From NCBI GenBank assembly GCA_035630545.1, contig DASQKK010000084.1, forward strand, positions 3,405-67,404: DNA of 64,000 nucleotides, written 5' to 3'. Made by a program: the position numbers and the translations under genes. The DNA is from Gaiellaceae bacterium. Its GTDB lineage: Bacteria > Actinomycetota > Thermoleophilia > Gaiellales > Gaiellaceae. The notes beneath the pieces are model-generated. The model was not told the DNA's origin and made no database searches. It worked only from the letters and a program-made list of their open reading frames with translations. Positions 2,364 to 38,642 of this stretch are shown in pieces (the first letter of the stretch is position 1; the number at the start of each line of letters is the position of its first letter).

Positions 2364-3531
2364 CCAGCACGACGAGCAACGCGACCAGGACGAGGTCGCG
2401 GAGCAGGACGAGCGTCGAGGGCAGCGGGTCGAGCTCGCGCGCCAGGTCCCAGTAGCGCGAGGGGAACCAGAGCTGCGTCAGCACGAGTGCCGCCGCGAGC
2501 AGCACGGACGCGCGGAGGCCGCGAAGGCCGCCGACCAGCGGCACGACGGGCGCGAGCCAGATCAGAAACTGCGGCGAGAGCACCTTCCCGAGCGCGACGA
2601 AGGCGACGAGGGCGGCAGCGCTCCAGCGGACGAGCTCCTCCGTCTCCGCCGGCCGTCTCAGCCAGATCCAGGCGAGCACCGCGATCTGCACGAGGCTGAG
2701 CACGGCCGCGGTGAAGGCCGTCCCCGACGCGTACAGGTTCTGCGAGCCGTGGCCCGAGCGCATCTCGACGTCGAGCCCGACCAGATGGTGGGCGGCGAGG
2801 TAGAGGGCCGCGCCGAGGCTCTCGATCTGGAGCGGCCGGGACAGTTGCCGCCCCAGGCTGTGGGCGACGCCGTCGGGCGCGACGAGGAGGAACGGCAGGA
2901 ACGCGAGCGCGACGACCCCGGCGCAGAGCGCCAGGCAGACGAGCGCCTCGCGCCGGCCGCGGCGGTTCCAGACGTAGCCGAGCGCGACGGGCACGAGCAC
3001 CGCCGGGTAGAGCTTCACCGCCACCGCCCCCCCGAGCAGCGCGAAGCCGAGCCGGTCGCGCCTGTGCACGAGCGCGGCGAGCGCGGCCGCCACGAACGCG
3101 ACCGGGTAGAGGTCGAACCGCGTCAGCACGACCGAGCCGAGGAGGAGCGGGAACGAGGCGACGAGGGCGAGCGCCCCGACGGTTCGCGCCCGCGAGGCAT
3201 TCAGCCCGCGCAGCGAGACGGCGGTGAGCAGCACGGTGACGACGCCGAGGAGCGCCATCAGCCCCTCGAAGACGTCCCTGAACCCCCGCTCGTCGTCGCT
3301 CAGGAGGGCGGGCACGACGAATGCGGGCAGCGCGCCCGGCGGGTACTCGGGCCGGACGTCGCGATACGGGACGGCACCGTCCTCGATCGCGGTGCCGTAG
3401 GAGGCGTAGACCGGGATGTCGACGATCTCACTTTCGTCGTACCAGGCCGTGTGCAGCGCGAGCCACGACAACAGGAAGAACGCCGCAGCGGCGACCGCCG
3501 CGAGCTCAGTGAACCTGCGCGGTGGGATCAC
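2326..3531 (-). CDS. polytopic membrane glycosyltransferase, GT87/DUF2029-like
   Basis: ORF track, 401 aa with about 10 TM helices. An N-terminal loop carries YPPGALP. The layout is that of a polyprenyl-phosphate-sugar dependent mannosyltransferase. Confidence 0.72.
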   Translation of the reverse strand: MIPPRRFTELAAVAAAAFFLLSWLALHTAWYDESEIVDIPVYASYGTAIEDGAVPYRDVRPEYPPGALPAFVVPALLSDDERGFRDVFEGLMALLGVVTVLLTAVSLRGLNASRARTVGALALVASFPLLLGSVVLTRFDLYPVAFVAAALAALVHRRDRLGFALLGGAVAVKLYPAVLVPVALGYVWNRRGRREALVCLALCAGVVALAFLPFLLVAPDGVAHSLGRQLSRPLQIESLGAALYLAAHHLVGLDVEMRSGHGSQNLYASGTAFTAAVLSLVQIAVLAWIWLRRPAETEELVRWSAAALVAFVALGKVLSPQFLIWLAPVVPLVGGLRGLRASVLLAAALVLTQLWFPSRYWDLARELDPLPSTLVLLRDLVLVALLVVLVRDTRGESPRSP

Positions 3532-5281
3532 GTCGATGGAGCAGTGCGAAGGCGACGAAGGGGAAGAACCAGGGGATGTAGAGGTAGAACCAGTGCGTCA
3601 GGGCGAGCTCGAAGCCGATCAGGACCGCCGCGGTGAGCGCGGCGAGCTGCAGGATCGACTTCTGCCTGGGCACGAAGGCGGTCAGGACCGCCCCGGCGAC
3701 GACGAGCACCTGCACCACCTGCTGCACGACATGCAGGTCGGGCACGCCGGCGGCGTGGTACTGGCCCCAGCCCCAGATCGAGAACGGCGAGTCACGGTCG
3801 AGCTGGAAGCCGAACGTGCGCTCGGCGAAGACGCGCGCCGCATGCAGCGGCTCCGGCTCGAGCAGGAGGACGAGAAACGCCGCGGCGGTCGCGCCCGCGA
3901 AGCCGAGCGCGAAGCGGCGCACCGGTGGGCGCAGGCCGTTCGGATAGGAGAGCCAGAGCGGCGCCAGCAGGAGCGCGGCGAACTTGGTCCAGCCCGCGAG
4001 CGCGACTGCGGCCCCTCGCGCCCAGGCCGAGCTCGCGAGCCAGAACCCCCAGATCAGGAAGGCGGGCATGATCGCGTCGTTCGTGTTCGAGTTCGACGCA
4101 TAGAGCGTGAACGGGTACGCGGCCCAGGCGAACGCGAGCGTCGCCGCCAGACGTGGGCCGCCGTACCGCCTCCCCACGAGCGCCAGCCCGAGGATGCAGA
4201 GCGCGTCGAAGAGAAGCGAGGTCGCGTGCGCCGCCCAGAGCTCGTCCCACTTCCCGGACCAGCCGAAGACCGCATACCCGGGCAGGTAGGCGAGGTAGGA
4301 CACCGGTCCGTATGTGTCGCCGCGCGGATTCGACGCCTCGCAGCGGCCGTTCGTCTGGATCCGCTCGCGGATCTCGCCCTCGGCGTCGGCGGTGCCGCAC
4401 GCCTTCAGACTTCCCTGCTCGGGCATGTGGCCGTACGGCATCTCGCCGTTCGCGATCCGCTGCGCACCGACGACGCCGGCGAAGCCGACGTCGATCACGC
4501 TCCGCTGCGCCTCGACGTTGAGCCCGACGCGGAACCCGACGAGGAAGACGCAGGCGGCCGCGAGCAGCCAGACCGGCCAGACGGGGGCGGAGGCACGCGG
4601 CGGCCGGTCGCGCCTGGCGACCCAGAGGCACCGGCCGAGTAGGTACACGATCGGCGGGTAGGCGAGCGGCGCGCTCCAGAAGATCTCGCCCTCGTTGAAG
4701 AAGCGGAGCGAGATCGAGAACGAGAGCAGCGCCAGGAGGTCGAGGTTGCGGAGCGAGAACGGCCGCCGCAGGTCGGCCAGGCCGACGAGGAAGAGCGCGC
4801 AGAACGCGAGCCAGAGCCAGACGCCGTTGATCGTCTTGCCCCCGAACGCGCCCGCGCCGCCGCGCGCCATCGACCAAGCCACCTGCGGCCCGGTCCAGGC
4901 CTCCGTCACCTCGCCGGTGCTGTCGTCGACCTTGCCGAGCACGATCTGGCCGGCCTTGCCCGACCAGGCCTTCACCACCCATTCGTCGTTCGCCGGCCGG
5001 TACTCGGCGTCCGTCTGCGGCTTCGGCGGGTAGCGGTCGAGCCAGTCGGCGACCTTGCCGTTGCGGAAGAGAATCGCGGTCGCCTGCTCCTCGGTCAGCC
5101 GCGCGGCACCCTCTGCGGGCACGAACGGGGTCTCGACGAGCCTGCCGTCGTCGTCGTAGACGGGCTCGGTCGGCGCCGTCGCCGCTCCCGCCGGAACGGC
5201 GAACGCCAACGCCGCCAGCGCGGCCGCTAGGGCCGGGAGCCGCGCCCGAACGACCAGAGCTTGTTCCCGACGAAGTTCCAC
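3506..5281 (-). CDS. large polytopic membrane protein with an N-terminal extracytoplasmic domain; putative GT-C type glycosyltransferase
   Basis: C-terminal ~590 aa of ORF 3506..5461. The Arg-rich first 60 aa overlap gtrA and look non-coding. The GTG at 5281 precedes the signal/TM segment RARLPALAAALAALAFAVPAGAA. The exact start is uncertain. Confidence 0.68.
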   Translation of the reverse strand: MELRREQALVVRARLPALAAALAALAFAVPAGAATAPTEPVYDDDGRLVETPFVPAEGAARLTEEQATAILFRNGKVADWLDRYPPKPQTDAEYRPANDEWVVKAWSGKAGQIVLGKVDDSTGEVTEAWTGPQVAWSMARGGAGAFGGKTINGVWLWLAFCALFLVGLADLRRPFSLRNLDLLALLSFSISLRFFNEGEIFWSAPLAYPPIVYLLGRCLWVARRDRPPRASAPVWPVWLLAAACVFLVGFRVGLNVEAQRSVIDVGFAGVVGAQRIANGEMPYGHMPEQGSLKACGTADAEGEIRERIQTNGRCEASNPRGDTYGPVSYLAYLPGYAVFGWSGKWDELWAAHATSLLFDALCILGLALVGRRYGGPRLAATLAFAWAAYPFTLYASNSNTNDAIMPAFLIWGFWLASSAWARGAAVALAGWTKFAALLLAPLWLSYPNGLRPPVRRFALGFAGATAAAFLVLLLEPEPLHAARVFAERTFGFQLDRDSPFSIWGWGQYHAAGVPDLHVVQQVVQVLVVAGAVLTAFVPRQKSILQLAALTAAVLIGFELALTHWFYLYIPWFFPFVAFALLHRRDPTAQVH

Positions 5282-5685
5282 GGGGTCACCAGCACGATCG
5301 CGATCGCCTGGGCGAGCACCTTGCCGACGCCGGCGGAGTCGACGAGCAGATGCAGGATGAGCAGGTTGGCGGCGAGCGCGATCGTCGAGACGACGAGGAA
5401 GCGCAGGCCCTGGTAGGCGACATGGCCGCGCTGGCCGCGGAACGTCCAGAGCCGGTTCCACGTGTAGTTGTTCGTCACGGCGACGAGGAACGATGCCGTC
5501 GCGGCGAGCAGGTAGTGGACGTCGCCCACCTTCAACAACAGCGTGTAGACGGCGAGGTTGACGACGTACCCGCTCGCGCCGACGAGGCAGAAGCGGATCA
5601 GCTGCAGCCAGTTCTCACGCCGGCCGAGCGCCCCCCGCGTGCGAGCGAGCGCAGCCGAGGCGCTGGGAGCGGTGGAGCGCTGCAT
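5227..5685 (-). CDS. GtrA family protein (polyprenyl-phosphate-glycose translocation)
   Basis: ORF track, 152 aa with 4 TM helices. Contains LIRFCLVGASGYVVN...NYTWNRLWTF...NFVGNKLWSF. Confidence 0.9.
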   Translation of the reverse strand: MQRSTAPSASAALARTRGALGRRENWLQLIRFCLVGASGYVVNLAVYTLLLKVGDVHYLLAATASFLVAVTNNYTWNRLWTFRGQRGHVAYQGLRFLVVSTIALAANLLILHLLVDSAGVGKVLAQAIAIVLVTPWNFVGNKLWSFGRGSRP

Positions 5686-5701
5686 CGCCGCGCGAGCCTA
5701 G

Positions 5702-6043
5702 CTAACGATGCGCCGAAAGCGGAATCACGAGCGCCCCGTCCGGCTCGATCCGCGCCTCGGCGAGCTCGGGAACGCTCGTGAGCGGGCGGCCGTGGGCGCG
5801 ATAGAACTCGAGCTCGCGCGAGTCGAGCAGGGTGAACGTGCTGTCGATCTCGATTCCGTGTGCGCCGCGGCGAGCCGTCGAGAAGGGGAGGAAGCGGTTG
5901 GCGCCGTCGCCGCAGTGGACCTCGAGCCCGAGGATCCGCGGCTCTTCGGCGTCGAGCAGCACGGTCTCCACTTCGCCGAGGCGAATCCCGCGCGTGAGCA
6001 CGGGCGCACGCAGCAACGTCGATGGCGTCTGCCCTCGCACCAC
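5702..6043 (-). CDS. PRC-barrel domain protein
   Basis: C-terminal 113 aa of ORF 5702..6184, starting at a GTG just downstream of the pcm stop. GIRLGEVETVLLDAEEPRILGLEV...FLPF fits a PRC barrel. Confidence 0.6.
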   Translation of the reverse strand: MVRGQTPSTLLRAPVLTRGIRLGEVETVLLDAEEPRILGLEVHCGDGANRFLPFSTARRGAHGIEIDSTFTLLDSRELEFYRAHGRPLTSVPELAEARIEPDGALVIPLSAHR

Positions 6044-6050
6044 GATCGCT

Positions 6051-6689
6051 CTACCCGCCCCCGGGCTCGTCGAACCCTGCCGAGCCGAGCAGCGGCACGA
6101 ACCGGCACGGCACGGTCCGCGTCCGGACGGGTCCCTGCGGCCCCCGCTCGACGATCTCGAGCCACTGGTCGCGCCGCGACCCAACCGGGACGACGAGACG
6201 TCCGCGTGGCGCGAGCTGCTCGTAGAGCGCGTCCGGGACCGCCGGCGCCGCAGCGGCGACGACGATCCCGTCGAAGGGCGCTCGCCCGGGCACGCCGAGC
6301 GTGCCGTCGCCGACCCGGACCTCGACGCGGTCGTAGCCGGCGCCCACGAGCGTGCGCCGCGCCTCCTCTGCGAGCTCCGGCACGCGCTCGATCGTCACGA
6401 CCTCGTCGGCGAGCTCCGCGAGCAGGGCCGCCTGGTAGCCGGAGCCCGTGCCGACCTCGAGCGCGCGGCCCCCGTCGAGCCTGAGCGCTTCGAGCATCGT
6501 CGCGACCATGTACGGCTGCGAGATCGTCTGCCCGGCACCGATCGGGAGCGCGCGGTCCGCATAGGCGTGCCGGCGGAGGTTCTCGGGCACGAACAGCTCG
6601 CGCGGCACGGCCGCGATCGCCGCCAGCACCCGCTTGTCGCGGATCCCCCGTAGGGCCATGAGCCTCGCGAGCTCGGGCCCGTCGCTCAT
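6051..6689 (-). CDS. pcm: protein-L-isoaspartate O-methyltransferase
   Basis: Last 212 aa of the artefactual 854-aa ORF. MSDGPELARLMALRGIRDKRVLAAIAAVPRELFVP, QTISQPYMVA and EVGTGSGYQAA (SAM motif I). Confidence 0.92.
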   Translation of the reverse strand: MSDGPELARLMALRGIRDKRVLAAIAAVPRELFVPENLRRHAYADRALPIGAGQTISQPYMVATMLEALRLDGGRALEVGTGSGYQAALLAELADEVVTIERVPELAEEARRTLVGAGYDRVEVRVGDGTLGVPGRAPFDGIVVAAAAPAVPDALYEQLAPRGRLVVPVGSRRDQWLEIVERGPQGPVRTRTVPCRFVPLLGSAGFDEPGGG

Positions 6690-33563: not shown

Positions 33564-34043
33564 CTAGCTCGGAGCGAGCCGCCGCCGCGCCTCGTCGATG
33601 ACCTGCTCGGCCTCGGCGCGGTTGCCGTAGCCCCGCGTCTCCGTCTTCTTCTCCTCGAGGTCCTTGTAGACCTGGAAGAAGTGCTCGATCTCGTCACGGA
33701 ACTCGGAGGGGATGTCGTGGATGTCGTGCACGCGCATCCACGCCGGATCCTTGAGCGGGACGAGGATCACCTTCTCGTCCGGCCCCTTCTCGTCGGTCAT
33801 GTGGAAGACGCCGACGACGCGGGCCCGGATACGGCAGCCGGGGAACGTCGGCTCACCGACGAGCACGAGCGCGTCGAGCGGGTCACCGTCCTCGCCGAGC
33901 GTCCCCTCGATGAAGCCGTAGTCGGCCGGATAGCTCATCGAGGTGAAGAGGCGCCGGTCGAGCACGACGTGGCCCGTCTCGGCGTCGACCTCGTATTTGT
34001 TCCGCGAGCCCATCGGCACCTCGACGAAGACCATGACGTCCAT
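33564..34043 (-). CDS. ppa: inorganic pyrophosphatase (family I)
   Basis: Last 159 aa of ORF 33564..35072. NKYEVD, YPADYGFI, EDGDPLDALVL. Confidence 0.93.
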   Translation of the reverse strand: MDVMVFVEVPMGSRNKYEVDAETGHVVLDRRLFTSMSYPADYGFIEGTLGEDGDPLDALVLVGEPTFPGCRIRARVVGVFHMTDEKGPDEKVILVPLKDPAWMRVHDIHDIPSEFRDEIEHFFQVYKDLEEKKTETRGYGNRAEAEQVIDEARRRLAPS

Positions 34044-34068
34044 GGTCGCCGAGCCTACACTCGGTCGG

Positions 34069-36438
34069 ATGGACCCGAACGCGCTCGACGTGCTGGAGTT
34101 CCCGGCGATCCAGGAGCGGGTTGCGCGTGCGACTGCGACCGACTTCGGCGCTGCGCTCGCCGCCGGCCTCGAGCCGTCGCCCGACCCGGAGGAGGTCGCC
34201 CGGCGCCAGGCGCTGACCGCCGAGGCGATCGGGCTCCTGGAACACTCGCTCGAGCCGCCGCTGGAGGGGATCCGCGACGTGCGCGAGCAGGCGGCGCACG
34301 CGGCGCTCGGCGGCGCGCTCTCGCCCGCGGCGCTGAGGCACGTCTCCGACACGGCCGCCGGCTCGCTGCGGGCGCGCGCAGCGCTCGACGACGCCCCGGC
34401 GCCGCTGCTCCGCGCACTCGCCGAAGCCGTCGACCCTGCGCTGGCGGCTGTCGCAAAGGCGATCGACCGCGCCGTCGAAGAGGACGGCTCCGACCTGCGC
34501 GACAACGCCTCGCCGAAGCTGCGCAAGTTGCGCGGCGAGCTCCGCACCGGGCGGCAGCGGGTGCGCGACAAGCTCGAGCAGCTCGTGCGCTCGAGCGAGC
34601 TACGCGAGCACCTGCAGGAGGAGTTCATCACCCTGCGCGGCGGCAGGCCGGTGCTCGCGGTCAAGGCGAGTGCCCGCCGCAGCGTGCCCGGGATCGTCCA
34701 CGACGCCTCCGACTCGGGCCAGACGCTCTTCGTCGAGCCCTTCGACGTCGTCGAGCTCTCCAATCGCCAGTCGGAGGCGGTGAGCGCGGAGCGGGACGAG
34801 GTCGAGCGGATCCTGCGGGAGCTCTCGACCGCCGTCGGCGAGGCGGCCGCACTGCTGACGGCCGGCGTCGAGGCAACGGGCCGGATCGACCTGTCGCTGG
34901 CGCTCGGGACGCTCTCACGCGGCTGGAAGGGGGCGGCGGTCGAGGTGTCGGAGGAGGTGCGGCTCGCGGCGGCCCGCCACCCGCTCCTCGACCCGAAGCT
35001 CGCCGTTCCGATCGACCTCGATCTCGGCACCTTGCGCGCGCTCGTGATCAGCGGTCCGAACACCGGCGGCAAGACGGTGGCGCTGAAAACGCTCGGGCTC
35101 GCCGCGCTCCTGCATCAATCAGGCCTCCGGCCTCCGGCTGAGACGGCCGCCCTGCCCGTCTTCGACCAGGTGCTCGCCGACATCGGCGACCGGCAGTCGA
35201 TCGAGATGAGCCTCTCGACGTTCTCCGGCCACGTCGCCAGCATCGTCGCGATCCTGAACGCCGCCGGCGAACGCTCGCTCGTGCTGCTGGACGAGCTCGC
35301 CTCGGGGACCGATCCGGTCGAGGGCTCTGCGCTCGCGCAGGCGCTCGTCGCGCGGCTCGCCGAGCAGGCGCGGCTGACGCTCGTCACGACCCACTATCCC
35401 GAGCTGAAGGAGTGGGCGAGCGCGAGCGAGGGTGTCGCCAACGCGGGCACCGGTTTCGATCCGGAGACCGATGCGCCCCTCTACCGGATCGCCCTCGGCA
35501 GGCCGGGAACGTCGCATGCGCTGCAGATCGCCGAACGCCTCGGGCTGGACACCGGCGTCGTCGCCGACGCGCGCGAGCTCGTGACACCGGAGCGGCTTCG
35601 GATTCAAGAGCTGCTCGCGGAGACGGAGTCGGCCGAGCGGGCCGCCGTCGACGAGCGCGCGTCGGCCGAGGCGGAGCGGGCCGAGGCCGCCCGGGTCACA
35701 GAGGATGTGCGCGAGCGGGAGCGGGAGCTGGAGGCCGAGATCGCGGCGGTGAAGGCGTCGGCCGCCGCGGAGCGTGAACGGGCCGCGGCGGAGGCGCAGC
35801 GAGATCTGGCCGCCGCCCGGGAGGAGCTTGCGGCGCTGCGTGAGGAGATCCGGGTCGCCCGACGGCGCGACCGCGAGTCGAGGCGGGCGACCCCGGCCGC
35901 CGCCCGCGAGCGCGACCGCCGCCTCGGGGCCGCCGCGGATCGCGCGGTGCGGGCGGAACGGGCGATCCGCGAGCTCGACGAGCCGCTCCCCTTCACTGGG
36001 CCGCTCGCGGCCGGCGATCCGGTCGAGGCGCCGGGGCTCGGCGTGCACGGGACGATCGCGGCGATCGAGGGTGACGAGGCCGAGGTGGTGGGGGCGGCCG
36101 GCCACCGGCTGCGGATCCCACTCGCGCGGCTGCGTCCCTCGCGCAAGCGGGAGCCGGAGCCGGAGGAGGTCCCGGTCACGGTCGTCGCGATGGCGAGTGC
36201 CGACGTCTCCGACGAGCTCGACGTGCGCGGGCAGCGGGCGCAGGAGGCGCGGGAGGCCGTCCGGTCTTTCGTCGACGACGCGGCCCTGGCGGGACTGCCG
36301 AGCGTCCGCGTCATCCACGGCCGCGGCACGGGTTCGGTGCGGGCTGCCGTGCGGGAGGAGCTGGACGGCCATCCGCTCGTCGACCGGCGCGAGAGCGATT
36401 CTGCCGACGGCGCCACGATTGTCCACCTCGAGGGCTAG
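34069..36438 (+). CDS. mutS2: endonuclease MutS2 (MutS domain plus C-terminal Smr)
   Basis: In frame with ORF 33943..36438. MDPNALDVLEFPAIQERV, Walker A GPNTGGKT, Smr VIHGRGTGSVR. An alternative ATG at 34042 is possible. Confidence 0.92.
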   Translation: MDPNALDVLEFPAIQERVARATATDFGAALAAGLEPSPDPEEVARRQALTAEAIGLLEHSLEPPLEGIRDVREQAAHAALGGALSPAALRHVSDTAAGSLRARAALDDAPAPLLRALAEAVDPALAAVAKAIDRAVEEDGSDLRDNASPKLRKLRGELRTGRQRVRDKLEQLVRSSELREHLQEEFITLRGGRPVLAVKASARRSVPGIVHDASDSGQTLFVEPFDVVELSNRQSEAVSAERDEVERILRELSTAVGEAAALLTAGVEATGRIDLSLALGTLSRGWKGAAVEVSEEVRLAAARHPLLDPKLAVPIDLDLGTLRALVISGPNTGGKTVALKTLGLAALLHQSGLRPPAETAALPVFDQVLADIGDRQSIEMSLSTFSGHVASIVAILNAAGERSLVLLDELASGTDPVEGSALAQALVARLAEQARLTLVTTHYPELKEWASASEGVANAGTGFDPETDAPLYRIALGRPGTSHALQIAERLGLDTGVVADARELVTPERLRIQELLAETESAERAAVDERASAEAERAEAARVTEDVRERERELEAEIAAVKASAAAERERAAAEAQRDLAAAREELAALREEIRVARRRDRESRRATPAAARERDRRLGAAADRAVRAERAIRELDEPLPFTGPLAAGDPVEAPGLGVHGTIAAIEGDEAEVVGAAGHRLRIPLARLRPSRKREPEPEEVPVTVVAMASADVSDELDVRGQRAQEAREAVRSFVDDAALAGLPSVRVIHGRGTGSVRAAVREELDGHPLVDRRESDSADGATIVHLEG

Positions 36439-37064
36439 ACCGGCTCCTCGACCACCTTCGCTGCGTAGAGCTGATACGGGAGCGCCTCGAGCACGCGCAG
36501 GCGTGGCTCCGGCACGTCGAAGAAGCGCGCGAGCGCGAGCGGCTGCAGCCACGCCAGGTCGGCTCGCGACTCGAGCACGCGGGCGACGGCCGCGCGGTCA
36601 CCGCCGAGTGCGACGCGGTCGACGCGTTCCCGCCAGGGACCGAGCACCCGGGCCGCCTCGGACGCCGCCGCGTCGACGAGCTCCCGCTCCTGCTCACCCC
36701 GCCGGCGGCGAAAGCGGTTGGACGAGGAGCCGCCCTTCTTGTGCCGACCCTTGACGAATCGCGTGCCGACCTTCGACGCGACGAGGCGCTCGCCCTCGAA
36801 GACGCCGGCTGCGTACCCGCCCATCCGCACGAGCAGGACGGCGACCGTCGGCGCGGCCGCCAGCGCGTCGAGCAGCGGGTCGACGCGGAGCACCTCGTAC
36901 TCGCCGTCGTGATCGAGGCCGAACGGCGGCGTCACGGTCAGCACGGCCTCGTCGAGCTCGAATCGGGCGCTGCCGGCGGCATAGAGCGCGCGACCCGGTG
37001 AGCCCGAGAAGGCGCGGACCCGCTTCGCGACGTTGTCGCGACCGATGTAGCGAGTCTCCGTCAC
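36435..37064 (-). CDS. acVLRF1-like (Vms1/ANKZF1-type, eRF1-fold) peptidyl-tRNA hydrolase
   Basis: GTG at 37064 in the frame of ORF 36435..38921. RMGGYAAGVFEG...FVKGRHKKGGSSSNRFRRRRGEQ aligns with the eRF1 GRGGQSALRFARLR loop, with Q replaced by S. Confidence 0.72.
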   Translation of the reverse strand: MTETRYIGRDNVAKRVRAFSGSPGRALYAAGSARFELDEAVLTVTPPFGLDHDGEYEVLRVDPLLDALAAAPTVAVLLVRMGGYAAGVFEGERLVASKVGTRFVKGRHKKGGSSSNRFRRRRGEQERELVDAAASEAARVLGPWRERVDRVALGGDRAAVARVLESRADLAWLQPLALARFFDVPEPRLRVLEALPYQLYAAKVVEEPV

Positions 37065-37082
37065 CGCGGCCACAATGGCAGG

Positions 37083-38642
37083 ATGACAACGACACACGGA
37101 ACTTCGACCGCGAACCAGCCGCCGCCGCTCGCGGGCTACAACCTCTACGAGCAGGACATCGCCCTGGTCGAGGGGCTGCGCCGGGAGGGTGGCAGCCCCT
37201 GGGAGGAGAGGGTCGCCGCGTTCGGCGAGCTCCTCGGCGGCGAGCCGCTCGAGTGGGGCCGGCTCGCAAACGAGCATCCGCCGCGGCTGCGGTCGCACGA
37301 CCGCTACGGCGAGCGTGTCGACGAGATCGAGTTCCACCCGGCCTGGGACTCGCTGCTCCGGGTCGGGCTGAAGGCGCAGGTGCAGTCGCTGCCCTGGGCG
37401 GAGCCGGCGACCGGCGCCCACGTCGCACGGGCAAGCCTGTTCATGCTGCTCGGCCAGGTCGAGGCCGGTGTCGGCTGCCCGCTCTCGATGACGTTCGCCG
37501 CCGTGCCGGCGCTGCGTACGCACCTCGACCTCGCCGAGGAGTGGATCCCGCGGCTGATCGCGGGCGAGGCGCTCTGCGGGATGGCGATGACGGAGCGTCA
37601 GGGAGGCTCCGACGTGCGCGCGAACGAGACGACGGCGCGGCCGGTCGGGGAGGCGTGGGAGCTGAACGGTCAGAAGTGGTTCTGCTCGGCGCCGATGAGC
37701 GATGCGTTCCTCGTGCTCGCGCAGGCGCCGGCCGGGCTCTCCTGTTTCCTGCTCGAGCGGCCGCAGCCCGGCTTCCGGATCGAGCGGCTGAAGGACAAGC
37801 TCGGCAACCGCTCGAACGCCTCGGCCGAGATCGCGCTCGACGGCGCGGTCGCCACCCTCGTCGGCGAGGAGGGGCGCGGCCTCCGGACGATCCTCGAGAT
37901 GGTCAACCACACGCGGCTCGACTGCGTGCTCGGCTCGACGGCGCTGATGCGCCGGGCTGTCGCGGAGGCGACGCACCACGCCGCCCACCGCGCCGCCTTC
38001 GGCAAGCTCCTCGCCGAGCAGCCGCTGATGCAGAACGTGCTCGCCGACCTCTGCGTCGAGTCGGAGGCGGCGACCGCGACGGCGCTCCGGCTCGCACGCG
38101 CGCACGACGAGGACGACGGCCCGTTCCGGCGGATCGCGACCGCGGTCGCGAAGTTCTGGATCTGCAAGCGGACACCACCCCTCGCCGCGGAGGCGCTCGA
38201 GTGCCTGGGCGGCAACGGCTACGTCGAGGAGTCGCAGCTGCCACGCCTCTTCCGCGAGAGCCCGCTCAACTCGATCTGGGAGGGATCGGGCAACGTCAAC
38301 GCGCTCGACGTCCTGCGGGCGCTCGGCAGGGAGCCGGAGACGGCGGAGGCCTTCCTGGCCGAGGTGCGGCTCGCGGCCGGAGCGGACGCGCGTCTGGACG
38401 CCGGCATCGCGCGTCTCGAGCACGAGCTCGCCGATCCCGAGGAGCAGAGCGCCCGGCGGCTGCTGGAGCTGCTCGCGGTGACGCTGCAGGGCTCGCTGCT
38501 CGTCCGCCACGGTGCGCCGGAGGTCGCGTCGGCGTTCTGCGCTTCGCGGCTCGACCGCCCCGGCGGGGTCTACGGGACGCTGCCGGCGGGCCTCGACCTG
38601 GAAGCGATCGCCGAGCGGCATCGCCCGCGGCTCGACGGCTAA
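37083..38642 (+). CDS. AidB-like acyl-CoA dehydrogenase family protein
   Basis: ORF track, 519 aa. MTERQGGSDVRANET, WFCSAP, IWEGSGNV. Confidence 0.88.
   Translation: MTTTHGTSTANQPPPLAGYNLYEQDIALVEGLRREGGSPWEERVAAFGELLGGEPLEWGRLANEHPPRLRSHDRYGERVDEIEFHPAWDSLLRVGLKAQVQSLPWAEPATGAHVARASLFMLLGQVEAGVGCPLSMTFAAVPALRTHLDLAEEWIPRLIAGEALCGMAMTERQGGSDVRANETTARPVGEAWELNGQKWFCSAPMSDAFLVLAQAPAGLSCFLLERPQPGFRIERLKDKLGNRSNASAEIALDGAVATLVGEEGRGLRTILEMVNHTRLDCVLGSTALMRRAVAEATHHAAHRAAFGKLLAEQPLMQNVLADLCVESEAATATALRLARAHDEDDGPFRRIATAVAKFWICKRTPPLAAEALECLGGNGYVEESQLPRLFRESPLNSIWEGSGNVNALDVLRALGREPETAEAFLAEVRLAAGADARLDAGIARLEHELADPEEQSARRLLELLAVTLQGSLLVRHGAPEVASAFCASRLDRPGGVYGTLPAGLDLEAIAERHRPRLDG

What the first reader, a model, noticed from the sequence alone, without database searches (positions are those of the whole stretch)
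34069..37064. MutS2 tail-to-tail with a Vms1-like (acVLRF1) peptidyl-tRNA hydrolase: candidate ribosome-rescue pairing
The mutS2 gene carries Walker A GPNTGGKT and a C-terminal Smr domain. Its 3' end overlaps by 4 nt the 3' end of a convergent gene whose product has an eRF1/Vms1-type loop: KKGGSSSNRFRRRR against eRF1 GRGGQSALRFARLR, with the catalytic Gln replaced by Ser.

From established knowledge, MutS2 acts in Bacillus as a sensor and splitter of collided ribosomes feeding ribosome quality control (RQC). Vms1/ANKZF1 releases nascent chains from obstructed large subunits in eukaryotic RQC.

Finding both at one locus suggests a MutS2 plus VLRF1 rescue route in this lineage, possibly in place of RqcH-type tailing. 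The genes are convergent and not co-transcribed, so the link rests on proximity only.
Basis: partly seen in the sequence, partly recalled or inferred. Interest (0 to 1): 0.65.

Follow-up and report, generated by a model that had tools for sequence, protein, structure and literature searches.

The report
MutS2 paired with Vms1-like release factor
A soil actinobacterium (Gaiellaceae) keeps the gene for MutS2, which splits collided ribosomes, next to a gene for a small Vms1/eRF1-like release factor; relatives keep the same pair together in several gene orders, which points to an undescribed bacterial route for clearing stalled ribosomes.

Summary
Bases 34069-36438 (+) encode a full-length MutS2 with an ABC ATPase, a KOW domain and an Smr domain (DVR in place of DxH, as in Bacillus subtilis). 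Bases 36435-37064 (-) encode a 209-aa acVLRF1 that scores above the NCBIfam and Pfam cut-offs. The two stop codons share one CTAG.

The acVLRF1 model has the eRF1 middle-domain fold. Its loop reads GGSSSNRF, so it lacks Gln at both positions where relatives carry one.

The adjacency is not unique to this genome. About 57% of acVLRF1 loci and of MutS2 loci sampled from Gaiellales/Thermoleophilia show the pair. It occurs in three arrangements:
- convergent, as in the window;
- mutS2 then acVLRF1, often with ATGA or TGATG stop/start overlaps;
- acVLRF1 then mutS2.

Flanking genes differ between these arrangements. Four Dehalococcoidia loci also carry the pair. Actinomycetes acVLRF1 loci never do.

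No paper found in the library describes this link; the paper that defined the family calls bacterial VLRF-1 standalone.

Best reading: MutS2 splits collided ribosomes and acVLRF1 frees the nascent chain from the 50S subunit. The chemistry is uncertain because the Gln is missing. Whether this replaces RqcH could not be tested.

The parts
34069..36438 (+). mutS2 coding sequence (789 aa plus stop), orthologue of the B. subtilis ribosome-collision sensor and splitter
   Evidence: TIGR01069 at 700.6 bits against a cut-off of 400. End-to-end phmmer alignment to B. subtilis MutS2 from the disome-bound structure 7qv3, E=8e-124, residues 3-782 against 3-776.
35053..35076 (+). Walker A motif GPNTGGKT of the ABC ATPase (residues 329-336)
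   Evidence: Lies inside Pfam MutS_V, residues 326-505.
35284..35313 (+). Walker B region LLDELASGTD (residues 406-415)
   Evidence: Aligns to LFDELGAGTD of B. subtilis MutS2. Park et al. mutated E416 of that protein as the Walker B residue (PMC10897456).
36013..36138 (+). KOW-like segment GDPVEAPGLGVHGTIAAIEGDEAEVV... (residues 649-690)
   Evidence: Aligns to the KOW region of B. subtilis MutS2 (GDEVKVLTFGQKGTL...). The role of KOW in binding uS10 comes from PMC10897456. No Pfam KOW hit was obtained here.
36217..36429 (+). Smr domain (residues 717-787) with DVR (718-720) in place of DxH, and with HGRGTG retained (750-755)
   Evidence: PF01713 at 63.7 bits. Motifs read. B. subtilis MutS2 has DLR and does not cleave mRNA (PMC10897456).
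36435..36438 (.). CTAG: the two TAG stop codons on opposite strands overlap by 4 nt
   Evidence: The same overlap of about 4 nt is estimated in several relatives (L004, L008, L019, L025, L030, L034, L038).
36435..37064 (-). acVLRF1 coding sequence (209 aa plus stop, GTG start), a single-domain Vms1/eRF1-like factor
   Evidence: NF041024 at 148 bits against 125. PF18859 at 123.6 bits. AlphaFold2 mean pLDDT 95.9. Best structural matches are aRF1/eRF1 middle domains, then Pelota, Balon and Vms1.
36711..36734 (-). Loop GGSSSNRF (residues 111-118). It corresponds to the GGQ loop of eRF1 and to the family motif GGxSQ. There is no Gln at position 3 or 5 and an Asn at position 6.
   Evidence: G111, G112, S114, R117, F118, R120 and R122 are invariant across 45 diverse homologues. 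This is the only region of lowered pLDDT, 78-85.
36849..37064 (-). N-terminal extension of about 72 residues (beta-rich) that replaces the stop-codon-reading domain of eRF1
   Evidence: It lies upstream of the PF18859 match, residues 73-203. Secondary structure. It is described as a distinctive extension of the bacterial VLRF-1 families in PMC6514570.

Best explanation
The two genes form a facultative two-step module for rescuing stalled ribosomes.

**Step 1 (inferred by orthology).** MutS2 recognises collided ribosomes through its KOW and Smr domains. It uses its ABC ATPase to split the stalled ribosome into a 30S subunit and a 50S subunit that still holds peptidyl-tRNA. It does not cut the mRNA, because its Smr domain has DVR rather than DxH.

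**Step 2 (inferred by homology and gene linkage).** acVLRF1 is an eRF1 middle domain without the codon-reading and GTPase-binding domains. It therefore cannot act at stop codons on 70S ribosomes. Like Vms1 on 60S subunits, it would enter the vacant A site of the free 50S. Its invariant GG loop and the basic helix RFRRRR would reach the peptidyl-transferase centre, where it would detach the nascent chain from the tRNA and so recycle the subunit.

In this lineage the usual Gln is replaced by Ser or Ala, with an Asn one residue further on. The chemistry is therefore uncertain: it could be ester hydrolysis with a different water-positioning residue, or cleavage of the tRNA 3' end as reported for Vms1/ANKZF1.

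**Shown here:** the identities, folds and motifs of both proteins, and the conserved gene linkage. **Inferred:** every biochemical step.
For: **Identities**
- MutS2 aligns end to end with the B. subtilis MutS2 seen on collided disomes, including Walker A and B, KOW and Smr.
- acVLRF1 passes both curated HMM cut-offs and folds as an eRF1 middle domain.

**Linkage, acVLRF1-centred (80 Gaiellales loci)**
- 34 convergent with MutS2.
- 11 in the order mutS2 then acVLRF1.
- 1 with MutS2 about 5.4 kb away.
- 34 with no MutS2 within 6 kb.

**Linkage, MutS2-centred (80 Gaiellales/Thermoleophilia loci)**
- 21 convergent.
- 18 mutS2 then acVLRF1.
- 7 acVLRF1 then mutS2.
- 34 with no acVLRF1 within 4 kb.

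**Signs of co-expression and of selection on the pair**
- Co-directional junctions show ATGA, TGATG or GTGA stop/start overlaps, or gaps of a few bases.
- The window's flanking genes (ppa, aidB-like acyl-CoA dehydrogenase, enoyl-CoA hydratase) are kept only in part of the convergent class. They never occur in the other two classes, so only the pair itself is conserved.
- In another phylum, 4 of 80 Dehalococcoidia acVLRF1 loci have MutS2 within 2 kb, in two orders and at least two tree positions.
- No other translation-related neighbour was found for acVLRF1 in any group.

**Constraint on the loop**
- G111, G112, S114, R117, F118, R120 and R122 are invariant in 45 diverse homologues.

**Background**
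- MutS2 splits collided ribosomes and feeds 50S-peptidyl-tRNA into RQC (PMC10897456; PMC11633108).
- Vms1 is the RQC release factor of the VLRF-1 clade (PMC6514570).
Against: - In the window itself the genes converge and cannot share a transcript.
- About 43% of sampled Gaiellales loci of either gene lack the partner nearby, and at least one genome has both genes unlinked (JBBJOI01: L028 and L247).
- acVLRF1 is common in class Actinomycetes, where MutS2 was never adjacent (0 of 80) and is reported absent (0 of 3,213 genomes; PMC11633108). It therefore does not need MutS2.
- The arrangement classes follow clades of the acVLRF1 tree, so the number of independent events is small, roughly five.
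- The protein lacks Gln at both candidate catalytic positions.
- No activity has been measured for any acVLRF1; no paper on one was found.
- Part of the older literature assigns MutS2 a role in DNA recombination.
Confidence: 0.55

Rival explanations
1. The genes are functionally linked, but the Gln-less acVLRF1 is not a hydrolase. It could be a non-catalytic A-site or peptidyl-transferase-centre binder. In that role it would help MutS2 split ribosomes, as Pelota/Dom34 helps the ABC ATPase ABCE1, or it would cap idle subunits, as the eRF1-like hibernation factor Balon does. Alternatively it could cut the tRNA 3' end rather than the ester bond.
For: - There is no Gln at loop position 3 or 5.
- 52 of 135 representative loops lack Gln at both positions, so this is a stable state and not a one-off.
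- Pelota, Dom34 and Balon all appear among the significant structural matches.
- MutS2 is an ABC-type ATPase, like ABCE1.
- From my own knowledge, not checked here: Vms1/ANKZF1 have been reported to cleave the CCA end of the tRNA.
Against: - Pelota and Balon have three domains and lack a conserved GG loop. Here the GG, Ser, Arg-Phe and following arginines are invariant, which argues for an active loop aimed at the peptidyl-transferase centre.
- Close family members that keep the Gln also occur next to MutS2 in Dehalococcoidia (GGSSQRRF), so the linkage is not specific to the Gln-less form.
- B. subtilis MutS2 splits disomes in vitro without such a partner (PMC10897456).
Confidence: 0.22
2. The adjacency has no functional meaning. 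It is inherited synteny within one order plus a few chance juxtapositions. The two proteins act in unrelated processes, for example MutS2 in suppressing recombination.
For: - The genes converge in the window.
- The arrangement states map onto clades.
- 34 of 80 loci of each gene lack the partner nearby.
- The paper that defined the family calls bacterial VLRF-1 proteins standalone (PMC6514570).
Against: - Three different orders and orientations occur with unrelated flanks, so only the pair persists.
- Stop/start overlaps typical of translational coupling occur at co-directional junctions.
- The pair recurs in a second phylum in two arrangements. My rough estimate is that 4 of 80 within 6 kb compares with about 0.3 expected for a random gene in a genome of about 3 Mb.
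- MutS2 is the only ribosome-related neighbour found for acVLRF1, and both proteins are predicted to act on stalled ribosomes.
Confidence: 0.15
3. acVLRF1 acts on whole 70S ribosomes as a codon-independent rescue factor, like ArfB, and works in parallel with MutS2 rather than after it.
For: - It is a single release-factor-type domain with a basic helix.
- It occurs widely without MutS2.
- PMC6514570 suggests single-component release factors in specialised contexts.
Against: - It has no C-terminal tail or decoding-site domain that could sense an empty mRNA channel.
- Its closest functional analogue, Vms1, needs the small subunit to be absent (statement in PMC6514570).
- Parallel action does not explain operon-level linkage with a splitting factor.
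Confidence: 0.08

Closest known systems
Vms1/ANKZF1 (eukaryotic VLRF-1), the release factor of ribosome-associated quality control
   Same: - It belongs to the same clade of the eRF1 superfamily, according to the paper that defined the family (PMC6514570).
- The fold matches the Vms1-60S structure 6r84_R (E=2.3e-4).
- It lacks codon-reading and GTPase-binding domains.
- It is predicted to act on a large subunit that a dedicated ATPase has split off.
   Different: - It is a bare 209-aa protein without zinc finger, ankyrin repeats, VIM or Cdc48 partner.
- By sequence and fold it is closer to archaeal aRF1 than to Vms1.
- The loop is GGSSSN rather than GxxQ.
- The upstream splitter is MutS2 rather than the eukaryotic splitting machinery.
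B. subtilis RQC pathway (MutS2, RqcH, RqcP, then Pth)
   Same: The MutS2 here is an end-to-end orthologue with the same Smr variant, DVR against DLR. The predicted substrate, 50S-peptidyl-tRNA, is the same.
   Different: - The release step in Bacillus is carried out by Pth after Ala-tailing (cited in PMC11633108). Here an eRF1-like factor is the linked gene.
- No rqcH or rqcP lies near the pair.
- Whether the genome encodes rqcH is unknown. The published survey found none in Actinobacteriota, but no Gaiella entry was found in the held part of its table.
Other acVLRF1 family members (class Actinomycetes and Dehalococcoidia)
   Same: Same family by HMM, same length class or slightly longer, and the same invariant GG..S..RF.R.R core.
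   Different: - Most carry GGxSQ (GGWSQQRF, GGSSQRRF, GGQSQRRF), whereas Gaiellales carry GGSS[AS]NRF.
- Their neighbours are metabolic: SDR, RpiB, an alpha/beta hydrolase and an Fe-S assembly protein.
- MutS2 is next to them in 0 of 80 Actinomycetes loci and 4 of 80 Dehalococcoidia loci.
Pelota/Dom34 with ABCE1, and Balon
   Same: These are eRF1-superfamily proteins without the catalytic Gln that work with, or alongside, ATPases or GTPases on stalled or idle ribosomes. They appear among the structural matches.
   Different: They have three domains and enter the decoding site. Their loop is not conserved, whereas the acVLRF1 loop is invariant apart from the Gln position.

Membership tests
acVLRF1 (NCBIfam NF041024 / Pfam PF18859) | Scores above the curated family cut-offs | tested here: met
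   NF041024 at 148 bits against 125. PF18859 at 123.6 bits against 27.1.
acVLRF1 (NCBIfam NF041024 / Pfam PF18859) | eRF1 middle-domain (RNase H-like) fold | tested here: met
   AlphaFold2 mean pLDDT 95.9. Foldseek top hits are aRF1/eRF1 (4af1 at 3e-8; 8hku_ARF1 at rmsd 3.3 A over 127 columns), and Vms1 6r84_R at 2.3e-4. The profile search hits aRF1 4af1 at E=7e-21.
acVLRF1 (NCBIfam NF041024 / Pfam PF18859) | No stop-codon-binding or C-terminal domain; a short distinctive N-terminal extension instead (PMC6514570) | tested here: met
   The protein is 209 aa. The domain match covers residues 73-203, preceded by a beta-rich extension of about 72 residues.
acVLRF1 (NCBIfam NF041024 / Pfam PF18859) | GGxSQ loop with a conserved Gln (PMC6514570) | tested here: not met
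   The loop is GGSSSNRF, with Ser at the Gln position. Position 5 is Q in 81, A in 29 and S in 25 of 135 representative loops. The Gln is therefore not universal in the family as HMMs now delimit it.
acVLRF1 (NCBIfam NF041024 / Pfam PF18859) | Arginine-rich start of the helix after the loop | tested here: met
   RFRRRR at residues 117-122. R117, F118, R120 and R122 are invariant in 45 homologues.
acVLRF1 (NCBIfam NF041024 / Pfam PF18859) | Peptidyl-tRNA hydrolase activity (the name NCBI gives the family) | not testable with these tools
   No experimental paper on any acVLRF1 was found.
MutS2 (TIGR01069), ribosome-collision sensor and splitter | Scores above the equivalog cut-off over its full length | tested here: met
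   700.6 bits against 400, residues 4-787 of 789.
MutS2 (TIGR01069), ribosome-collision sensor and splitter | Architecture of lever/clamp, ABC ATPase, KOW and Smr, without MutS domains I and II | tested here: met
   End-to-end alignment to B. subtilis MutS2 7qv3 (E=8e-124), including the KOW and Smr regions. Pfam finds MutS_V, Smr and a weak MutS_III hit only. KOW is seen by alignment only, not by a Pfam hit.
MutS2 (TIGR01069), ribosome-collision sensor and splitter | Smr nuclease motif DxH | tested here: not met
   The motif is DVR at residues 718-720, with HGRGTG kept. This is the same state as B. subtilis DLR, which splits ribosomes without cleaving mRNA (PMC10897456).
MutS2 (TIGR01069), ribosome-collision sensor and splitter | Binds collided disomes and splits them using ATP | not testable with these tools
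   Inferred from orthology only.
Bacterial RQC of the Bacillus type (MutS2 with RqcH, RqcP and Pth) | rqcH (NFACT) encoded in the same genome | not testable with these tools
   - Only 64 kb of the genome is available.
- The ten genes flanking the pair are metabolic.
- The published survey reports 0 of 3,213 Actinobacteriota with rqcH. It also reports 0 with mutS2, and no Gaiella entry was found in the held part of its table.
Conserved gene neighbourhood (operational definition) | The same gene pair is adjacent in several lineages, with differing order, orientation and flanks | tested here: met
   Three arrangements occur in Gaiellales/Thermoleophilia and two in Dehalococcoidia. The window's flanks are not shared between arrangement classes. 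Co-directional junctions show stop/start overlaps.

The most novel reading that the evidence does not exclude
Gaiellales, and some Dehalococcoidia, run a tailing-free form of ribosome-associated quality control. MutS2 splits collided ribosomes. A minimal Vms1-like factor then frees the nascent chain directly from the 50S subunit, using a Gln-less GGSS[SA]N loop and therefore a variant catalytic mechanism. This would be the first bacterial pathway in which an eRF1-superfamily protein is the RQC release factor. It would be a prokaryotic counterpart of the eukaryotic Vms1 step, and RqcH would not be required.
Probability: 0.35. Interest if true: 0.8.

Novelty: new variant of a known kind. Interest (0 to 1): 0.62.

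Why it matters
In bacteria the only established way to release nascent chains from split 50S subunits is Pth acting after RqcH/RqcP Ala-tailing, a mechanism reported only in 2024. Many bacteria have MutS2 but no detected RqcH. In the published survey, the Fibrobacterota-Chlorobiota-Bacteroidota group has 1,781 genomes with mutS2 against 404 with rqcH, and Acidobacteriota 31 against 8. How those lineages clear obstructed 50S subunits is an open question.

A conserved, partly operonic link between MutS2 and a Vms1-like factor names a concrete candidate and makes the question testable in vitro with two small recombinant proteins.

It would also give the bacterial VLRF-1 proteins a cellular context, since until now they have been described as standalone. 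It bears on how the eukaryotic Vms1 step of RQC arose. The naturally Gln-less loop offers a test of what the 'catalytic' Gln of release factors is really needed for.

Tried and rejected
- **Alignment too diverse.** A 45-sequence family-wide alignment had no stretch conserved enough for the locus search. I split it into three sub-alignments.
- **Home-made gene callers.** Two callers for the fetched loci mis-called genes in this 72% GC DNA; for example they fused acVLRF1 with the antisense shadow of the neighbouring dehydrogenase. I dropped them. I used tblastn with known proteins instead, and clustering of all ORFs followed by Pfam annotation of cluster representatives.
- **Other ribosome-related neighbours.** None was found. 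The recurrent neighbours are an SDR, RpiB, an Abhydrolase_10 protein, a SufT-like Fe-S assembly protein, a glyoxalase and an EamA transporter.
- **clpS-DUF2017 operon.** It lies beside acVLRF1 in L072 and looked interesting, but it recurs only in L070, so I rejected it as a conserved link.
- **Fusion proteins.** The long database proteins containing acVLRF1 (P0126, P0138, P0177, P0163, P0146) have no MutS2 or other informative domain and look like frameshift or read-through artefacts.
- **L071.** The joined MutS2 match in L071 contains stop codons. I left it out of the alignment; it may be a pseudogene or an assembly error.
- **Promoters and terminators.** The scan around the pair found nothing above background.
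- **RNA genes.** The window holds no tmRNA or other ribosome-rescue RNA, only one tRNA-Arg.
- **rqcH.** Its status could not be addressed. There is no whole-genome access, and the published survey does not appear to include Gaiellales in the held part of its table.
- **Cerullo et al. 2022.** This MutS2 paper is not held in the library.


Full report
**What is in the window**

The window is 72% GC. The closest homologues of both proteins come from Gaiellaceae metagenome-assembled genomes (class Thermoleophilia, Actinomycetota).

On the + strand, 34069..36438 encodes a 789-aa protein. It matches the NCBIfam equivalog for MutS2 over its whole length, at 700.6 bits against a cut-off of 400. It also contains Pfam MutS_V and Smr domains.

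On the - strand, 36435..37064 encodes a 209-aa protein. It passes the curated cut-offs of both acVLRF1 models: NF041024 at 148 bits against 125, and PF18859 at 123.6 bits against 27.1.

The genes converge, and their TAG stops share the tetranucleotide CTAG at 36435..36438.

The surrounding genes are metabolic:
- Upstream: a dihydroxy-acid dehydratase family protein, a gluconolactonase-like protein, an FAD-linked oxidase, an SDR, a glucose-dehydrogenase-like protein and inorganic pyrophosphatase.
- Downstream: an AidB-like acyl-CoA dehydrogenase, two enoyl-CoA hydratases and a GNAT acetyltransferase.

**MutS2**

The protein aligns from residue 3 to 782 with B. subtilis MutS2 from the collided-disome structure 7qv3, at E=8e-124. 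The alignment covers:
- Walker A (GPNTGGKT, residues 329-336) and Walker B (LLDELASGTD, residues 406-415);
- the KOW segment (residues 649-690);
- the Smr domain.

In Smr, DVR replaces the nuclease motif DxH, while His-Gly-x-Gly (HGRGTG) is kept. This is the state of B. subtilis MutS2 (DLR). Park et al. showed that this protein binds collisions through KOW and Smr and splits ribosomes with its ATPase without cutting mRNA (PMC10897456). By orthology, the window's MutS2 is a collision sensor and splitter of the Bacillus type. This is an inference, not a measurement.

**acVLRF1**

An AlphaFold2 model built on 45 diverse homologues is very confident, with mean pLDDT 95.9. Only the loop region drops, to 78-85.

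Foldseek against the PDB gives, in order:
- archaeal and eukaryotic release factor 1 middle domains (4af1 at 3e-8; 8hku_ARF1 at rmsd 3.3 A over 127 columns);
- Pelota/Dom34;
- the bacterial hibernation factor Balon;
- yeast Vms1 on the 60S subunit (6r84_R at 2.3e-4).

A sequence profile of the family hits aRF1 at E=7e-21 but finds no Vms1 chain at E<=1.

The protein has no stop-codon-reading domain and no C-terminal domain. A beta-rich extension of about 72 residues precedes the core. This matches the description of the family by Burroughs and Aravind (PMC6514570).

**The loop**

That paper gives GGxSQ as the acVLRF-1 motif. The window protein has GGSSSNRF.

The profile alignment to aRF1 (GGQSAQRF and GGQSQRRY) places the classical GGQ Gln at loop position 3 and the family's Gln at position 5. 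The window has Ser at both positions.

This is a lineage trait and not a lesion:
- Among 135 representative clusters at 50% identity with a readable loop, position 5 is Q in 81, A in 29 and S in 25. 52 have no Gln at position 3 or 5.
- Asn at position 6 occurs in 30 of the 54 loops with A or S at position 5. It occurs in none of the 81 Q-type loops. This hints that the amide group has shifted by one residue.
- That sample is the 150 best hits to the query, so it is biased towards close relatives.
- The rest of the loop and the following helix are invariant across 45 diverse sequences: G111, G112, S114, R117, F118, R120 and R122.

The loop is thus under strong constraint even without the Gln.

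**Is the adjacency conserved?**

| Scan | Loci | Result |
|---|---|---|
| (i) acVLRF1, Gaiellales (Ser/Ala loop) | 80 | 34 convergent with MutS2 as in the window; 11 mutS2 then acVLRF1; 1 with MutS2 about 5.4 kb away; 34 with none within 6 kb |
| (ii) acVLRF1, class Actinomycetes (GGWSQQRF type; Kribbella, Streptosporangium, Nonomuraea and others) | 80 | none has MutS2 within 6 kb |
| (iii) acVLRF1, Dehalococcoidia (GG[SQ]SQRRF type) | 80 | 4 have MutS2 within 2 kb (listed below) |
| (iv) MutS2, Gaiellales/Thermoleophilia (reciprocal) | 80 | 21 convergent; 18 mutS2 then acVLRF1; 7 acVLRF1 then mutS2; 34 with no acVLRF1 within 4 kb |

The four Dehalococcoidia cases in scan (iii):
- L224: mutS2 then acVLRF1, 39-nt gap.
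- L231: same order, gap of about 110 nt.
- L222: MutS2 1.7 kb upstream.
- L228: acVLRF1 then mutS2.
- They sit at two or more positions in the acVLRF1 tree.

An example of the third arrangement from scan (iv) is L290, where acVLRF1 at 3347..3979 is followed after 9 nt by mutS2 at 3989..6367.

**Why this is more than inherited synteny**

- Three orders and orientations of the same pair occur within one order of bacteria, and two more occur in another phylum.
- The window's flanking genes (ppa, the AidB-like dehydrogenase, enoyl-CoA hydratase) are found only in part of the convergent class. They are never found in the other classes, so the only constant is the pair.
- Many co-directional junctions are ATGA, TGATG or GTGA stop/start overlaps, or gaps of a few bases. 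That is the usual signature of co-transcription and translational coupling.
- MutS2 is the only translation-related neighbour acVLRF1 has anywhere in the 240 loci. The other recurrent neighbours are an SDR, RpiB, an Abhydrolase_10 protein, a SufT-like protein, a glyoxalase and a transporter.

**Caveats**

- The arrangement states follow clades of the acVLRF1 tree, so the number of independent events is about five, not dozens.
- About 43% of loci of either gene lack the partner nearby.
- One genome has both genes on different contigs (JBBJOI01: L028 and L247).

**Relation to what is known**

Full-text searches for acVLRF1, VLRF1 with MutS2, MutS2 with Vms1, and Vms1-like bacterial factors found no paper that links the two. 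The MutS2 paper co-authored by Burroughs and Aravind does not mention Vms1 or gene neighbourhoods. Cerullo et al. 2022 is not held in the library, so I cannot exclude a remark there.

A survey of 15,259 genomes found rqcH and mutS2 in 0 of 3,213 Actinobacteriota (PMC11633108). No Gaiella entry was found in the held, truncated part of its genome table, although Solirubrobacterales and Rubrobacter are listed there. A MutS2 in Gaiellales is thus itself outside the published picture of the phylum.

The same survey shows that MutS2 without RqcH is common in some phyla: 1,781 against 404 in the Fibrobacterota-Chlorobiota-Bacteroidota group, and 31 against 8 in Acidobacteriota. The step after splitting is unexplained in those lineages.

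**Most likely mechanism**

MutS2 splits the stalled ribosome of a collision. The resulting 50S-peptidyl-tRNA complex is the substrate of acVLRF1. Because acVLRF1 lacks a decoding domain, it can only reach the peptidyl-transferase centre once the 30S subunit is gone, as with Vms1. It then detaches the nascent chain.

The link to MutS2 is facultative. In Actinomycetes the same family must receive its substrate from some other source. I put about 0.75 on the two genes sharing a pathway and about 0.55 on the specific split-then-release model.

Rival explanations:
- The main rival (0.22) keeps the linkage but doubts the chemistry. Without a Gln the protein may be a tRNA-end nuclease or a non-catalytic factor in the manner of Pelota or Balon.
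- Pure coincidence or synteny has about 0.15.
- ArfB-like action on 70S ribosomes in parallel with MutS2 has about 0.08.

**Not tested**

- Whether rqcH, rqcP, arfB or tmRNA are present in this genome. The window holds only one tRNA-Arg and no tmRNA.
- Whether Gaiellales genomes whose acVLRF1 is not next to MutS2 encode MutS2 elsewhere. Only one such case was caught.
- Any biochemical activity.

**Verdict**

Both proteins belong to known families. What is new is their conserved pairing and the Gln-less loop, so I rate this a new variant of a known kind of system, with moderate to high interest.

Noticed in passing
window 36711..36734 (-); homologues P0121-P0270: Across the acVLRF1 family the 'catalytic' Gln at loop position 5 is replaced by Ala or Ser in 54 of 135 representative loops. 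Asn at position 6 occurs only in those Gln-less loops: 30 of 54 against 0 of 81. This suggests a compensating shift of the amide group. Some members carry GGQSQ or GGQSA, identical to archaeal aRF1 at the classical GGQ position.
   Followed up: partly
window 34069..36438; loci L241-L320: A full-length MutS2 is widespread in Gaiellales/Thermoleophilia: 269 relatives were found in the species-representative genome collection. A published survey reports mutS2 in 0 of 3,213 Actinobacteriota genomes, and no Gaiella entry was found in the held part of its table. Its search was DNA-based, to judge from its bp coverage filters, and may also miss high-GC genes.
   Followed up: partly
window 34043..34069 and 37064..37083: Both genes of the pair are divergently abutted by their outer neighbours with almost no spacer. 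The ppa start codon and the mutS2 start codon are 25 bp apart. The acVLRF1 start (GTG) and the AidB-like dehydrogenase start are 18 bp apart. Promoters must lie inside the neighbouring coding regions, or the mRNAs are leaderless. The consensus promoter scan found nothing there.
   Followed up: partly
L161-L240 (Dehalococcoidia), e.g. L207:3979-5973: In about 30 of 80 Dehalococcoidia loci, a protein of about 660 aa with an Abhydrolase_10 domain lies directly upstream of acVLRF1 on the same strand, with gaps of 4-200 nt. An SDR gene converges on the 3' end of acVLRF1 in 55 of 80 loci. The significance is unknown.
   Followed up: partly
L081-L160 (class Actinomycetes), e.g. L150:5518-5904: In about 19 of 80 Actinomycetes loci, a small Fe-S cluster assembly protein (Pfam FeS_assembly_P, SufT-like) lies just upstream of acVLRF1 on the same strand. 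acVLRF1 there may sit at the end of a suf gene cluster.
   Followed up: no
L052/L293 (JBLNEO01) and L303 (JAICUZ01): These contigs carry Gaiellales-type mutS2 (and, in L052/L293, acVLRF1), with 63-74% identity to Gaiellaceae proteins. Their records are titled 'Pseudomonadota bacterium' and 'Burkholderiales bacterium'. The contigs are probably mis-binned or the MAGs mislabelled.
   Followed up: no
L071:3643-5983: The MutS2 match upstream of acVLRF1 in this Thermoleophilia MAG contains four in-frame stop codons when the matched range is translated as one frame. It is either a frameshifted pseudogene or an assembly error.
   Followed up: no
L070 and L072 (about 6500-7360 in L072): A clpS gene followed by a DUF2017-like gene lies next to acVLRF1 in two Gaiellales genomes that lack MutS2 at the locus. 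It was not found in any other of the 320 loci, so it is probably coincidental.
   Followed up: yes
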